A DNA stretch of 64,000 nucleotides. It comes from a virus. This document shows positions 55,922 to 58,017 of the stretch, piece after piece (the first letter of the stretch is position 1; the number at the start of each line of letters is the position of its first letter). Under the pieces are notes generated by a model. The model ran no database searches. It saw nothing but the letters and a program-made list of their open reading frames with translations, and had not been told where the DNA came from. The stretch lies in the IMG/VR virus record IMGVR_UViG_3300045988_132725; one strand, 5' to 3'. The translations under genes and the position numbers were made by a program.

Positions 55922-56701
55922 ATGCAGAAAACAAAAATTTATGGCGTTATCGCCTGTGTGGTGGCTTTCTTAGCCTTAATGATGTTACCTAAGTGCGCCG
56001 AGGATGTGAAGAACGAGGAGATCGTTATTAATCAAGTTCTTTTTACCGGTGAGCTGGAATATTGGACTACCCCGGGATTCAAATTTCAAAAAGGTGGGCG
56101 AACCTCCAACTATTACAAAACTAATCAGATTTGGTTTAACGAGATCGAGAAAGAAAAGAAGAATAATGGAAATATTATTCTTCGTCCCACCGGAGATAAT
56201 CCGGCATTGCCGATCACTTATAATGATAAGGGTAAGGGGTATGTTCTGGGAAGTGTTAGAATTGAACTACCTACAGATCAGAAGTTTCTTTATCGAATCC
56301 AAACTCACTACGGATCTATGGATCGATTGATTAACGATTTAATCAAGCCTACTCTGGGTAAGGTTATCCTAGCTTGTGGTCCGCTTATGACATCGTTAGA
56401 GTCAGTATCCGAGAAACGAACAGACTTGATCGCTTACGCAACGGATCAGTTGAATTATGGCGTATATAAGACAATGGTGAAGGAAGAGGAGACTACCGAC
56501 CAATTAACGAACGAGATCAAAATCATCCGGATAGCTAGTCTTATTACTGATTCTGTTTCTCCGAACGGTTATAAGAGGCAAGAAGAGTCACCATTTGCTT
56601 ATTATGGACTGAAGGTTTCCCAGCTTTCTATCTCTGATATGGAATATGAGCAAGCTACGATAGATCAGATCAATAAACAGAGAGAGGCTGATATGTCTTA
56701 A
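55922..56701 (+). CDS. SPFH/band-7 membrane protein, N-terminal part (candidate exon 1)
   Basis: N-terminal TM (IYGVIACVVAFLALMML) plus an SPFH-like body. Ends abruptly (..QREADMS*) where the coiled-coil tail should begin. Confidence 0.6.
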   Translation: MQKTKIYGVIACVVAFLALMMLPKCAEDVKNEEIVINQVLFTGELEYWTTPGFKFQKGGRTSNYYKTNQIWFNEIEKEKKNNGNIILRPTGDNPALPITYNDKGKGYVLGSVRIELPTDQKFLYRIQTHYGSMDRLINDLIKPTLGKVILACGPLMTSLESVSEKRTDLIAYATDQLNYGVYKTMVKEEETTDQLTNEIKIIRIASLITDSVSPNGYKRQEESPFAYYGLKVSQLSISDMEYEQATIDQINKQREADMS

Positions 56702-57585
56702 CATAATAGGACCTTTATGCAGAAATGTATAAAGCAAAGGCTTTTAATTGCTGGAAAATCCTTATTAATTGCTGTATATAAGGACAATCAGCAGCCAAGC
56801 ACTGAATATAAAAATAACAATCGTATTATAAATATTAAAAACCAAAGCCAATGAAGTATTTATTTAATGTAGGTGATAAAGTGGATAACTTTACACTTTT
56901 AGAACATATTAGAATTGAAACTGCCGCAGGGAATAAAGAGTGGAGATGGAAATGTATTGATGAGACAGGAATGTTTTATTATATGCGTCCTAGAGCGCTT
57001 CATCTAAAAGCTCAAAAAGCTCAAAAGGCAATAGATCGGATTGTAAATAGCGATTATTATGAACAAATGGGACTTAATCAGATGGGGTTACGTAAGAAGG
57101 TATTTAGTGAATATATCTCCAATGCGGCCAGAAGAGGAATTCCTATGAATTTGAAATTTGAAGAATTTAATCACTTAATAAACCAAGATTGTTATTATTG
57201 TGGATCTCATCCATACGTGCATAAAAGTCTGATACCAAGAGCTAATAAGGCAGAACCTATGCTAAAGCATAATGGGGTTGATAGACTTGATTCTAGTATT
57301 GGATATGAGAAATTCAATTGTGTTCCATGTTGTTTTAAGTGCAATAGAGCAAAAGATACTATGAGTTCTGAAGAATTTATAGATCATATTGAAAGAATAC
57401 ATAATCATATATTCAGTGAAGGTTCAACGACTATCCCGAAAGGGAGTACACTTGAAATGTATGCAGGTGGAAAAGGAGCCTCTCCTCATTTGATAGAATA
57501 GGAGAATGATATAGTCTAATCTATATGGTAACATATAGCAGCCGAATGGCGCAGCAAGCGTTATGAACTTGTTGGAATATGAATG
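56699..57585 (+). mobile_element. candidate group I intron (887 nt) carrying an HNH homing endonuclease
   Basis: The 5' exon ends in U (56698), which pairs as G-U with GGAC at 56709-56712 (a 4-bp P1). The intron ends in G (57585). Removal fuses ...EADMS to IVTAKSK... in frame. A GUAA-capped 7-bp hairpin (CTATATG-GTAA-CATATAG) lies in the 3' segment. Confidence 0.5.
56851..57501 (+). CDS. HNH homing endonuclease
   Basis: CYYCGSHP...HNGVDRLDSSIGYEKFNCVPCCFKCNRAK is an HNH motif with Cys pairs. Confidence 0.85.
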   Translation: MKYLFNVGDKVDNFTLLEHIRIETAAGNKEWRWKCIDETGMFYYMRPRALHLKAQKAQKAIDRIVNSDYYEQMGLNQMGLRKKVFSEYISNAARRGIPMNLKFEEFNHLINQDCYYCGSHPYVHKSLIPRANKAEPMLKHNGVDRLDSSIGYEKFNCVPCCFKCNRAKDTMSSEEFIDHIERIHNHIFSEGSTTIPKGSTLEMYAGGKGASPHLIE

Positions 57586-58017
57586 ATAGTTACAGCAAAG
57601 TCAAAAGCTTTAGAGGCCGCTCAATTAAGAATCCAAGCCGAGGAAGAAGGTAAGAGAGACGCTGAGAAAGCAAAATGGAAACAAGAGGAGATCAAGGCTG
57701 TAGAGGTTACTAAGGCTCAACAAGCTTACGAGGTCGCTCAGTTACAAGCTAAGGAGGCTGCGGAGAAGGCGAAAAAGATTATTGAAGAGGGTAAAGCTGA
57801 GGCAGAAGCAAACAGATTGAAAGTTCAAGCTGGTCTTACCCCACAAGAAAAGGCTGAGTGGGATTACAAGACAACGGTAGGTGTCGCTGAGGCTTTATCT
57901 AAATCAAATGTTCGTTGGGTTCCAGAGATCATGATGGGTAATACTGGAGGAGGTAACTCTATGGATGCGGTTGGACTGAAGATGATGCTTGACATCGCCA
58001 ATCAAATGAAGAAATAG
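57586..58017 (+). CDS. SPFH/flotillin-type Ala/Glu/Lys coiled-coil tail (candidate exon 2; track ORF starts at ATG 57583)
   Basis: AKSKALEAAQLRIQAEEEGKRDAEKAKWKQEEIKAVEVTKAQQAYEVAQLQAKEAAEKAKKIIEEGKAEAEANRL is the typical C-terminal region of SPFH proteins. An in-frame TGA lies immediately upstream of 57583. Confidence 0.6.
   Translation: MVTAKSKALEAAQLRIQAEEEGKRDAEKAKWKQEEIKAVEVTKAQQAYEVAQLQAKEAAEKAKKIIEEGKAEAEANRLKVQAGLTPQEKAEWDYKTTVGVAEALSKSNVRWVPEIMMGNTGGGNSMDAVGLKMMLDIANQMKK

What the first reader, a model, noticed from the sequence alone, without database searches (positions are those of the whole stretch)
55922..58017. SPFH/band-7 gene split by an HNH endonuclease gene, consistent with a self-splicing group I intron
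The 259-aa ORF has the TM helix and SPFH body but stops (..INKQREADMS*) just where the Ala/Glu/Lys coiled coil of such proteins starts. That coiled coil is encoded 885 nt downstream (57583..58017) in a frame blocked by TGA immediately upstream. An HNH gene lies between them, flanked by 152 nt and 84 nt of non-coding RNA-like sequence. The last exon-1 base is U (56698). GUCU can pair with GGAC (56709-56712), giving the G-U wobble of a P1 helix. The insert ends in G (57585). Excising 56699-57585 joins EADMS to IVTAKSK in frame. The 3' segment contains a GUAA-capped 7-bp hairpin. Introns in phage SPFH genes are not something I know to be described. The alternative is a free-standing homing endonuclease that has split the gene into two separately translated halves.
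Basis: partly seen in the sequence, partly recalled or inferred. Interest (0 to 1): 0.66.

Follow-up and report, generated by a model that had tools for sequence, protein, structure and literature searches.

The report
Self-splicing intron in phage SPFH gene
A phage membrane-scaffold (SPFH) gene is interrupted by an ordinary mobile, self-splicing group I intron that carries its own HNH-type homing nuclease; this kind of element is well known in phages, and only the host gene and some details are new.

Summary
Window 56699-57585 (887 nt) is a subgroup IA (IA2-like) group I intron with a 216-aa HNH-type ORF in its P6 loop. It splits a 402-aa SPFH gene.

- **Exact excision:** Removing these bases reproduces uninterrupted alleles from about 99%-identical phage genomes, with one amino-acid difference.
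- **Structure:** Rfam's group I model hits both flanks below threshold. An ORF-less relative (70% identical core) scores 87.9 bits, and a T4-type td/I-TevI control scores nothing.
- **Covariation:** Eight divergent copies give 97.6% paired cells and 39/72 pairs with compensatory changes, against 4-11 in slid controls. The U•G pair at the 5' splice site is invariant. All 11 related introns end in G.
The last 27 codons of the ORF are themselves the P6'-P8 ribozyme core.
- **The ORF:** It is PacI-like, with Tyr in place of the catalytic His.
- **Mobility:** Synonymous changes cluster at the junction (P≈1e-7), consistent with co-conversion after homing.
- **Spread:** Related introns occupy at least four sites in phage SPFH genes, sometimes two in one gene.

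Splicing and homing themselves are inferred. This is a new member of a known kind and of modest interest.

The parts
55922..56698 (+). SPFH gene exon 1 (259 codons: TM helix plus SPFH/Band_7 body). It ends in U56698.
   Evidence: It is colinear with residues 1-259 of the uninterrupted 402-aa homologs.
56699..57585 (+). Group I intron (887 nt, subgroup IA, IA2-like). It starts with an in-frame UAA and ends with the terminal G57585.
   Evidence: Rfam hits; exact absence in alleles L001-L005; covariation; GC 33.5% against 40-44% in the exons.
56695..56712 (+). P1: exon GUCU plus intron UA (56695-56700) pairs with UAGGAC (56707-56712). U56698•G56709 is the splice-site wobble pair.
   Evidence: helix 1: 100% paired, 3 of 6 pairs with double changes, U•G in 8/8. 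Coordinates.
56713..56734 (+). P2 hairpin with a GAAA loop.
   Evidence: helix 2: 7 of 8 pairs with compensatory changes.
56739..56744 (+). P3 5' strand (GGCUUU). It pairs with 57475-57480.
   Evidence: helix 3: 100% paired, with 4 of 6 pairs compensatory over a distance of about 730 nt.
56749..56793 (+). P4 (56749-56754 / 56788-56793) enclosing P5 (56759-56762 / 56781-56784).
   Evidence: P4 is invariant, matches the Rfam consensus, and is near-identical to the EF1 intron.
56794..56796 (+). P6 5' strand (GCC). It pairs with GGU 57421-57423 across the ORF.
   Evidence: helix 6: the column 109/120 pair is C-G in 4 sequences and U-A in 4.
56851..57501 (+). Intron ORF of 216 aa in the P6 loop: a PacI-like HNH (His-Me finger) putative homing endonuclease. 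Its last 27 codons encode the ribozyme core.
   Evidence: PHROG endonuclease/HNH families; profile hit to PacI 3ldy at E=9.7e-9; invariant Cys4, D144, R145, Y152, N156, N165.
57421..57469 (+). P6 3' strand, J6/7, P7 5' strand (GACUA 57429-57433), P7.1 (57434-57445) and P7.2 (57449-57469). All lie inside the ORF.
   Evidence: The motif GTTCAACGACTATC-N9-AGTACA occurs in more than 120 viral contigs.
57475..57480 (+). P3 3' strand (GGAGCC).
   Evidence: helix 3.
57481..57505 (+). P8 hairpin. The ORF stop codon UAG (57499-57501) overlaps its 3' strand.
   Evidence: helix 10: 4 of 6 pairs compensatory. Coordinates.
57506..57516 (+). J8/7 and the P7 3' strand (UAGUC 57512-57516). P7 forms the pseudoknot with P3 and holds the presumed guanosine-binding G-C pair.
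   Evidence: Identical to the Rfam consensus GAUAUAGUC and invariant in all copies (helix 7).
57521..57538 (+).
   Evidence: helix 11: 5 of 7 pairs compensatory.
57541..57574 (+). Peripheral hairpins P9.1 (57541-57550) and P9.2 (57552-57574).
   Evidence: helices 12-13: P9.2 has 6 of 7 pairs compensatory.
57586..58017 (+). SPFH gene exon 2 (143 codons plus stop; coiled-coil and C-terminal region).
56686..57597 (+). Putative co-conversion tract. Synonymous exon differences from the intron-less alleles lie at 56692, 56698 | 57591, 57594, 57597, plus 56686 in two of the five loci.
   Evidence: In each intron-less locus, 5-6 of the 8-13 differences fall within 25 nt of the junction (P = 1e-7 to 4e-7).

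Best explanation
Window 56699-57585 is a mobile group I intron of the phage-typical IA (IA2-like) type, inserted in phase 0 between codons 259 and 260 of a 402-aa phage SPFH gene.

**Proposed splicing (inferred).**
- In the pre-mRNA, exon bases GUCU (56695-56698) pair with the internal guide GGAC (56709-56712) to form P1, with the U56698•G56709 wobble pair.
- The core folds as P3-P8, with P7 pseudoknotted to P3.
- A free guanosine bound in P7 attacks after U56698.
- The terminal G57585 then docks, and exon 1 attacks after G57585.
- This joins ...EADMS to IVTAKSK... Unspliced RNA terminates at the UAA at 56699-56701.

**The intron ORF.** The P6 loop carries a 216-aa PacI-like HNH endonuclease gene. 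Its last 27 codons double as P6'-J6/7-P7-P7.1-P7.2-P3'-P8.

**Proposed homing (inferred).** During mixed infection the enzyme cuts or nicks intron-less SPFH alleles near the insertion site. Recombinational repair then copies in the intron together with a few flanking exon bases.

**What is shown:** the anatomy, the conserved covarying structure, the exact junction, the presence/absence polymorphism and the junction-clustered substitutions.

**What is inferred:** catalysis, in vivo splicing, nuclease activity and specificity, and homing.
For: 1. **Exact excision.** Exon 1 plus exon 2 gives 402 aa, identical apart from P40L to the uninterrupted proteins P0001-P0023. At DNA level there are 8-13 mismatches in 1209 nt and no indel.
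2. **Rfam.** RF00028 hits 56693-56859 (30.0 bits, model positions 5-158) and 57326-57538 (31.4 bits). These are the only group I hits in the 64-kb window.
3. **Controls.** The ORF-less Enterococcus phage EF1 intron aligns at 70% identity over the whole core and scores 87.9 bits against a gathering cutoff of 50. A T4-type td/I-TevI intron gives no hit at all. ORF-bearing introns are therefore expected to fall below threshold.
4. **Recurrence.** HNH relatives at 36-65% identity all lie between SPFH gene halves with the same core.
5. **Consensus fold.** RNAalifold on eight copies recovers P1, P2, P3, P4, P5, P7.1, P7.2, P8, P9, P9.1 and P9.2, with 38 of 69 pairs compensatory.
6. **Pair counts with P6 and the P7 pseudoknot added.** 97.6% of cells are paired, against 36-42% when partners are slid. 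39 of 72 pairs show double changes, against 4-11 when slid. 0 of 500 shuffles reach the observed values. The splice-site U•G pair is present in 8/8 copies, and P6 covaries across the ORF.
7. **Splice-site rules.** All 11 related introns have U before the 5' splice site and G as the last base.
8. **ORF restoration elsewhere.** In-silico splicing restores 393-404-aa ORFs in the other loci.
9. **Mobility signature.** Flanking genomes are 98.6-99.7% identical with and without the intron. Only 2 of 34 IMG/VR SPFH loci are interrupted. Synonymous changes cluster at the junction with P about 1e-7.
10. **The ORF.** Its profile matches PacI at E=9.7e-9, with the invariant Cys4, Asp, Asn and Tyr residues.
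11. **Family size.** The same 3' core occurs in 253 annotated phage records, often at the end of HNH or endonuclease VII ORFs inside split DNA polymerase genes.
Against: - There is no RNA-level evidence. The predicted ligated junction is absent from the metagenome and viral contig collections.
- Both Rfam hits are below the gathering score (30.0 and 31.4 against 50).
- P4 and P7 are invariant, so they are supported by identity to the consensus and not by covariation.
- I could not establish a consistent P10.
- The covariation alignment was assembled by me from anchor-defined segments. The tested structure derives from that alignment, which inflates the 'cells paired' contrast, though not the double-change counts.
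- The intron-bearing lineage carries P40L at a column that is invariant in 12 diverse homologs. This could hint at relaxed constraint.
- The intron ends in AUG in frame, so separate translation of exon 2 cannot be formally excluded.
Confidence: 0.9

Rival explanations
1. A free-standing HNH homing endonuclease gene has inserted into the SPFH gene. The two halves (259 aa and 144 aa) are translated separately and reassemble or act independently, and no RNA splicing occurs.
For: The downstream ORF has its own in-frame ATG at 57583, formed by the last three inserted bases. Gene callers annotate three separate genes in every related locus. No spliced transcript was found.
Against: This does not explain a complete group I core with 39 of 72 covarying pairs, the invariant splice-site U•G pair, or the terminal G in all 11 copies. 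It also does not explain the 70% identity to an Rfam-validated intron. At site C the downstream piece would be only about 60 residues (L018). In L019 and L214 the insert ends in CUG or UUG, not AUG.
Confidence: 0.03
2. The element is a real group I intron by descent, but in this phage it is decaying or splicing-defective, so the SPFH gene is effectively a pseudogene.
For: P40L replaces a residue that is invariant in 12 homologs, and the other intron-bearing clusters carry extra substitutions (P0064 R88C; P0065 Q38H and N138K). Rfam scores are sub-threshold. P9.1 is shorter in the window than in its relatives (GCC/GGC against GUUC/GAAC).
Against: Every helix in the window copy is intact and canonical, and the single-sequence MFE fold recovers P1-P8. 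Both exons are open, and apart from P40L all differences from intron-less alleles are synonymous. The HNH ORF is full length with all invariant residues. The same intron is found with at most one substitution in independent samples.
Confidence: 0.05
3. The resemblance to a group I intron is a chance match in AT-rich sequence, and the insert is some other kind of mobile cassette.
For: Only the sub-threshold Rfam scores in low-GC sequence.
Against: The covariation statistics and the slid and shuffled controls. Homology to hundreds of phage intron cores. The Rfam-validated ORF-less relative.
Confidence: 0.01

Closest known systems
Phage T4 td intron with I-TevI (the T4-type arrangement was seen here in Proteus phage phiP4-3, L217)
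   Same: It is a phage protein-coding gene split by a group I intron. The T4 phage introns are usually classed IA2 (my background knowledge). The homing-endonuclease ORF is looped out of the core, in P6 for td (background knowledge). An in-frame stop follows soon after the 5' splice site. The layout is exon / HEG / exon. The 5' part of the window's core gives a weak blastn match at the end of td exon 1 in phiP4-3.
   Different: The endonuclease there is GIY-YIG (I-TevI), not HNH. The host gene is thymidylate synthase. In the window the ORF's last 81 nt are themselves P6'-P8 of the ribozyme.
Enterococcus phage EF1 ORF-less group I intron (MF001358.1, about 77650-77875; L216 580-804)
   Same: It is the closest sequence-level relative found among annotated phages. 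It is 70% identical over the whole ORF-deleted core, with near-identical P4-P6, P7-P7.1, J8/7-P7' and P9. It passes Rfam RF00028 at 87.9 bits.
   Different: It has no ORF in P6. It has a different host gene, host phylum (Firmicutes phage) and exon context.
HNH-encoding group I introns in phage DNA polymerase genes (I-HmuI in Bacillus phages SPO1/SP82; I-PfoP3I in cyanophage Pf-WMP3, PMC3428280; 'endonuclease VII' ORFs in Escherichia phages Bas93/Bas94)
   Same: These are IA2-type phage introns carrying an HNH-superfamily endonuclease. In Bas93/Bas94 the window's 3' core aligns under the end of the endonuclease ORF within a split DNA polymerase I gene. I-PfoP3I and I-HmuI are nicking enzymes (PMC3428280 abstract for the former; I-HmuI from background knowledge).
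   Different: The host gene here is a membrane-scaffold SPFH gene, not a DNA-metabolism gene. The ORF belongs to the PacI-like Tyr variant, not the classic His-containing HNH type.
Group I introns of gut Bacteroides/Phocaeicola 'Jug' jumbo phages (PMC12880540)
   Same: They occur in gut Bacteroidota phages. There are many group I introns and HNH genes splitting genes, and splicing was confirmed there by metatranscriptome reads for 37 of 76 predicted introns.
   Different: Those introns average about 206 nt and were reported in terL, nrdD and DNA polymerase genes. This one is in a different, smaller myovirus-like phage of Parabacteroides and in an SPFH gene. I could not check their supplementary tables.
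Restriction endonuclease PacI (PDB 3ldy/3m7k; His-Me finger group 20)
   Same: The intron ORF family aligns with PacI over CxxC...GVDR.DS..GY...N...C..CN..K (E=9.7e-9). This includes the Cys4 zinc ligands, the Asp and Asn metal ligands, and a Tyr where PacI has the Tyr that replaces the catalytic His (PMC5714182, PMC4081073).
   Different: PacI is a bacterial stand-alone type II restriction enzyme. This protein is intron-encoded, has a different N-terminal region of about 90 aa, and has a C-terminal tail dictated by the ribozyme sequence.

Membership tests
Group I intron (Rfam RF00028 Intron_gpI) | Score at or above the curated Rfam gathering threshold (50 bits). | tested here: inconclusive
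   The window gives two partial hits of 30.0 and 31.4 bits, because a 620-nt ORF splits the model. Controls: the ORF-less homolog EF1 scores 87.9 bits, and the bona fide ORF-bearing T4-type td/I-TevI intron gives no hit. The ORF-deleted window intron could not be submitted to cmscan with these tools.
Group I intron | Conserved core helices P3-P8 (P4-P6 and P3-P8 domains) supported by comparative covariation. | tested here: met
   RNAalifold recovers them without any prior. 97.6% of cells are paired and 39 of 72 pairs are compensatory, against 4-11 in slid controls. P4 and P7 are invariant and match the consensus.
Group I intron | P1 formed by the 5' exon end and an internal guide, with a U•G wobble pair at the 5' splice site. 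| tested here: met
   U56698•G56709. The pair is U•G in 8/8 aligned copies while neighbouring P1 pairs covary. U precedes the splice site in all 11 related introns.
Group I intron | A terminal guanosine as the last intron nucleotide. | tested here: met
   G57585, and G in all 11 related introns. A one-base boundary ambiguity at DNA level is resolved by this rule together with the U rule.
Group I intron | P7 helix with the guanosine-binding G-C pair, pseudoknotted with P3. | tested here: met
   GACUA 57429-57433 pairs with UAGUC 57512-57516. It is identical to the Rfam consensus, invariant and fully paired in 8/8 copies, and crosses the covarying P3. There is no covariation within P7 itself.
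Group I intron | Removal restores the host reading frame exactly. | tested here: met
   Intron-less alleles L001-L005 have exactly the predicted junction. Splicing in silico restores 393-404-aa ORFs in five other loci.
Group I intron | P10 pairing between the guide and the 3' exon. | tested here: inconclusive
   Inspection of the segments gave only 2-4 bp possibilities, in inconsistent register between copies.
Group I intron | GTP-dependent self-splicing activity. | not testable with these tools
   This needs in vitro transcription and splicing, or RT-PCR. The ligated junction was not found in public contigs.
Subgroup IA (IA2-like) | Extra helices P7.1 and P7.2 between P7 and P3', a P2 helix, and peripheral P9.1/P9.2. 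| tested here: met
   P7.1 is 57434-57445 and P7.2 is 57449-57469, both with compensatory changes (helices 8 and 9). P7.1/P7.2 are named as class-defining features in PMC3984707. More than 50% of viral group I introns are IA2 (PMC11835236). Choosing IA2 over IA1 or IA3 rests on my background knowledge and was not tested with subgroup-specific models.
HNH / His-Me finger (ββα-metal) endonuclease | The ββα-metal catalytic motif with zinc-binding cysteines and Asp/Asn metal ligands. | tested here: met
   The profile of 14 homologs matches PacI (3ldy) at E=9.7e-9 over the catalytic region. Cys114, Cys117, Cys160/161, Cys164, D144, N156 and N165 are invariant. PHROG HNH and endonuclease VII families hit at 2.4e-17 to 2.8e-12. 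The fold was not modelled.
Classical HNH (Pfam PF01844) | First His of the H-N-H motif acting as general base; Pfam HNH model above threshold. | tested here: not met
   The window protein has no Pfam hit. Only 4 of 14 relatives touch PF01844, at E>=0.022. The motif reads GVDR.D with an invariant Tyr152, as in PacI, where Tyr replaces His (PMC5714182, PMC4081073). I therefore file it as PacI-like, not classical HNH.
Homing endonuclease / mobile intron | Presence/absence polymorphism at one site in otherwise near-identical genomes, with co-conversion of flanking markers. | tested here: met
   Flanks are 98.6-99.7% identical with and without the intron. 2 of 34 IMG/VR loci are interrupted. In each intron-less locus, 5-6 of the 8-13 exon differences lie within 25 nt of the junction, P about 1e-7.
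Homing endonuclease / mobile intron | Site-specific cleavage or nicking of the intron-less allele by the encoded protein. | not testable with these tools
   This requires a protein expression and cleavage assay on ...GACATGTCG|ATAGTCACTGCG...

The most novel reading that the evidence does not exclude
One lineage, consisting of a PacI-type (Tyr-based) His-Me finger endonuclease together with its IA2-like ribozyme, has specialised on phage SPFH genes and has hopped between at least four insertion sites in them.

- Site A is the window's site.
- Site B lies 12 nt downstream. In L016 it uses the same 4-nt GUCU P1 target as the window, which would be compatible with ectopic reverse splicing rather than classical homing.
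- Site C is about 80 codons downstream, in phase 1.
- Site D is in a shorter SPFH subtype.
- A single gene can accumulate two, and possibly three, introns.

If so, this would be a natural series for studying how an intron and its homing endonuclease retarget within one gene. It would also assign a biological role, homing, to the poorly understood PacI-like viral nuclease group.
Probability: 0.45. Interest if true: 0.45.

Novelty: new member of a known kind. Interest (0 to 1): 0.3.

Why it matters
**Annotation.** Gene callers and databases currently list three separate genes here: a 259-aa 'SPFH' fragment, a hypothetical protein, and a 144-aa hypothetical protein. The truncated protein clusters P0064 and P0065 (120 member sequences) stem from this.

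**Biology.**
- The case extends the host-gene range of mobile phage group I introns from DNA-metabolism and packaging genes to a membrane-scaffold gene, in a Parabacteroides phage.
- It shows an ORF whose C-terminal 27 residues are dictated by the ribozyme core.
- It suggests that PacI-like Tyr-type His-Me nucleases act as intron homing endonucleases.
- The multi-site series in SPFH genes could be used to study intron retargeting.

None of this changes current understanding of group I introns.

Tried and rejected
1. **Megablast of the whole locus against GenBank phages** found no match. The phage itself is not in that collection.
2. **First motif scan used a wrong spacer** (N10 instead of N9). 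It returned 42 unrelated-host introns with no SPFH or HNH homolog. This was still useful, because it showed the motif is generic. The scan was repeated correctly.
3. **Search for an exact 'spliced' protein or DNA junction** as a proxy for transcripts. No 402-aa protein carries the intron-linked L40. The ligated-junction 27-mer is absent from the metagenome and viral contig collections. This is uninformative rather than negative.
4. **SPFH profile against GTDB species-representative genomes** found no relative, so host assignment rests on source names and one P. distasonis chromosome record.
5. **crAss-like phage origin** was considered because of the 50%-identical SPFH in crAss001. I rejected it because the window encodes a tail sheath and a tape-measure protein.
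6. **The local P6 closure proposed by the Rfam 5' hit** (GC just before the ORF's ATG) was rejected in favour of closure across the ORF. P7 must follow P6 closely, and the long-range pair covaries.
7. **The RNAalifold hairpin 57421-57432** is spurious. It replaces the P7 pseudoknot, which that program cannot model.
8. **P10** could not be defined consistently.
9. **The Pfam HNH models do not capture the ORF**.
10. **The PacI structure paper (PMC2886031) is not held**, so the equivalence of Tyr152 to PacI's catalytic Tyr rests on the HMMER alignment plus reviews.
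Full report
**Observation.**
- A 259-aa ORF (55922-56701) ends in ...INKQREADMS*. It has a TM helix and a Band_7/SPFH body (Pfam E=4.9e-5).
- A 216-aa ORF follows at 56851-57501.
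- A 144-aa ORF follows at 57583-58017, with TGA immediately upstream.
- Both outer ORFs hit one PHROG family, phrog_11908, at profile positions 27-261 and 282-418 of 430.
- Joining 56698 to 57586 gives a 402-aa protein.

**Uninterrupted alleles define the junction.**
- The 402-aa product matches many uninterrupted 402-aa proteins, for example P0001, 'SPFH domain-containing protein [Parabacteroides distasonis]'. It covers them fully and differs by a single residue, P40L.
- Five intron-less loci (L001-L005) are colinear with the spliced CDS. They show 8-13 mismatches in 1209 nt and no indel.
- The flanking phage DNA is 98.6-99.7% identical.
- Only 2 of 34 SPFH loci of this clade in IMG/VR are interrupted, and both belong to the window's own lineage.
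- The 887-nt insert is therefore a presence/absence polymorphism within one phage population.
- At DNA level the boundary is ambiguous by one base. The group I rules (U before the 5' splice site, G as the last intron base) pick 56698|56699 and 57585|57586. Either choice gives the same protein.

**Group I ribozyme.**
- With permissive settings, Rfam RF00028 hits 56693-56859 (30.0 bits; P1-P6) and 57326-57538 (31.4 bits). The genuinely aligned part of the second hit is P7, P3', P8, J8/7-P7' and P9. These are the only group I hits in the 64-kb window.
- Both hits are below the gathering score of 50, so I ran controls.
- An ORF-less intron in Enterococcus phage EF1 is matched by blastn to both halves of the window's core. 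It aligns at 70% identity (160/228) over the whole ORF-deleted intron and scores 87.9 bits.
- A T4-type td/I-TevI intron (Proteus phage phiP4-3) gives no hit at all.
- Sub-threshold scores are thus expected for ORF-bearing introns.

**Comparative proof.**
- Relatives of the intron ORF at 36-65% identity all lie between halves of SPFH/Band_7 genes in phage contigs. A more distant one (P0169, 43% identity over about half its length, L215) sits instead in an AAA_24 gene.
- These loci carry the same core. Rfam scores there reach 47.1 bits.
- I cut out ORF-deleted introns from 11 loci. All have U as the last exon base and G as the last intron base.
- On eight divergent copies, RNAalifold recovers P1, P2, long-range P3, P4, P5, P7.1, P7.2, P8, P9, P9.1 and P9.2 without any prior. 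38 of 69 pairs are compensatory.
- I then added P6 and the P7 pseudoknot. 97.6% of cells are paired, against 36-42% when partners are slid by 1-3 columns.
- 39 of 72 pairs show changes on both sides, against 4-11 when slid. 0 of 500 shuffles reach the observed values.
- The splice-site U•G pair is present in 8/8 copies. One P6 pair switches between C-G and U-A (4:4) across the ORF of about 620 nt. This places the ORF in the P6 loop.
- P4 and P7 are invariant and equal the Rfam consensus.
- P7.1 and P7.2 lie between P7 and P3', which places the intron in subgroup IA. It is most like IA2, the subtype that makes up more than half of viral group I introns (PMC11835236).
- I could not define a consistent P10.

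**The ORF overlaps the ribozyme.** The last 27 codons of the 216-aa ORF (57421-57501...EGSTTIPKGSTLEMYAGGKGASPHLIE*) are P6', J6/7, P7, P7.1, P7.2, P3' and the 5' strand of P8. The stop codon overlaps the 3' strand of P8. This explains the conserved EGSTTIPKGST tail in all relatives. Such overlap is a recognised configuration (PMC3984707).

**The endonuclease.**
- PHROGs assign the ORF to endonuclease VII and HNH families.
- Pfam has no adequate model.
- A profile of 14 homologs matches restriction endonuclease PacI (3ldy, E=9.7e-9) across CxxC...GVDR.DS..GY...N...C..CN..K.
- Cys4, D144, R145, Y152, N156 and N165 are invariant.
- PacI-type His-Me finger enzymes lack the catalytic His and use a Tyr instead (PMC5714182, PMC4081073).
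- The ORF is therefore a PacI-like member of the HNH superfamily. Its activity and target site are untested.

**Mobility signature.**
- In each intron-less locus, 5-6 of the 8-13 differences from the window fall within 25 nt of the junction. These are CDS positions 771, 777 | 783, 786, 789 in all five loci, plus 765 in L001 and L002. All are synonymous third positions.
- The probability of this clustering is 1e-7 to 4e-7.
- One of them changes the last exon base from G to the U needed for the P1 wobble pair.
- This is the pattern expected from co-conversion during homing, from selection for P1 pairing or nuclease resistance, or from both.

**Wider family.**
- The P7-P7.2 motif occurs in more than 160 IMG/VR stretches.
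- The 3' core matches 253 annotated phage records, including Staphylococcus, Bacillus, Enterococcus, Escherichia, crAss-like and Lak phages. The matches often lie at the end of HNH or endonuclease VII ORFs in split DNA polymerase genes.
- Gut Bacteroides jumbo phages carry thousands of group I introns that have been validated by metatranscriptomes (PMC12880540).
- The element is thus of a common kind. I found no paper in the held library reporting an intron in a phage SPFH gene.

**Multi-site colonisation of SPFH genes.** In-silico splicing restores 393-404-aa ORFs in five other loci and maps the introns to several sites.

| Site | Position | Loci |
|---|---|---|
| A | the window's site | window, L009, L011/L012, L013 |
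| B | 4 codons downstream of A | L014, L016, L017 |
| C | about 80 codons downstream of A, phase 1 | L018, and a second intron in L011 |
| D | in a shorter SPFH subtype | L019, L214 |

L011 carries two HNH introns in one gene, whereas L012 lacks the second.

**Context.** The window is from a contractile-tailed phage (tail sheath, tape measure, portal, protease, NAD-dependent ligase), not a crAss-type podovirus. This holds despite a 50%-identical SPFH gene in crAss001. Source names and one chromosome record point to Parabacteroides distasonis as the host.

**Verdict.** It is a mobile IA2-like group I intron with a PacI-like HNH homing endonuclease gene in a phage SPFH gene. Splicing and homing are inferred from strong comparative evidence and have not been shown at the RNA or protein level. 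This is a new member of a known kind, and interest is modest.

Noticed in passing
window 56717-56854: A 45-aa ORF overlaps the 5' ribozyme core and reads ...KDNQQPS... through P4'/P6. In L019, L214 and L215 the HNH ORF itself starts there (ATG GAx AAT CAG CAG CCA AG). In the window this frame ends in a TGA that overlaps the HNH start codon (ATGA). It could be a remnant of an older, longer ORF, or translational coupling. The small ORF is not conserved in L009.
   Followed up: partly
L011 about 3486-4516 (compare L012): There is a second, independent HNH-containing group I intron at site C (...AGL|TPQERAEWDY) in the same SPFH gene that already carries the site-A intron. The otherwise matching contig L012 lacks it.
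   Followed up: partly
L013 619-1659 and 1876-2307: A 346-aa ORF with faint LAGLIDADG_3/HTH hits sits upstream of a shortened (143-aa) N-terminal SPFH fragment. This suggests a further insertion (intron or free-standing homing endonuclease) in the 5' part of that SPFH gene. Rfam gave no group I hit there at E<=0.05.
   Followed up: no
L215 2371-3251: A more distant relative of the HNH ORF (43% identity over about half its length), with the same ribozyme core, splits an AAA_24 (PF13479) gene. The intron/HNH lineage is therefore not strictly confined to SPFH genes.
   Followed up: partly
window 56039-56041 (codon 40): All intron-bearing alleles of this lineage have Leu40, whereas every intron-less homolog has Pro40. 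That column is invariant in 12 diverse SPFH proteins. It could be a hitch-hiking marker of the intron lineage or a sign of relaxed constraint.
   Followed up: partly
window 58187-58258 and 59009-59083: Two phage tRNA genes (tRNA-Glu UUC and tRNA-Met CAU) lie just downstream of the SPFH gene. The sub-threshold Rfam 'Plastid-ycf2' hit on the minus strand of the second tRNA looks spurious.
   Followed up: no
L002 (CP103242.1, 1,703,307-1,716,515) and scaffolds L001, L003-L005: The intron-less version of this phage region lies inside a 5.4-Mb Parabacteroides distasonis chromosome record and in 0.27-1.2-Mb metagenomic scaffolds. This suggests an integrated (prophage) state. The GTDB representative genomes lack the gene.
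   Followed up: no
L009, L014, L016, L017, L019, L214 (spacer between P6 and the HNH start): Several relatives have TAnnTTTG-like motifs just upstream of the HNH ORF. From memory, this resembles the Bacteroides -7 promoter consensus. The window's shorter spacer (56797-56850) has none, so HNH expression may be organised differently here.
   Followed up: no
L024 (4952, 5362, 5770), L102, L129; L216 232-514, 580-804, 1071-1224: Some viral contigs carry two or three copies of the same intron-core motif within about 1 kb. Enterococcus phage EF1 has three Rfam group I hits within 1.2 kb. These are clusters of introns in single phage genes.
   Followed up: no
window 57583-57585 and the equivalent position in relatives: Most introns of this family end in AUG, which gene callers take as the start of a separate downstream ORF. 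This systematically produces split-gene annotations, for example the 259-aa clusters P0064 and P0065.
   Followed up: partly
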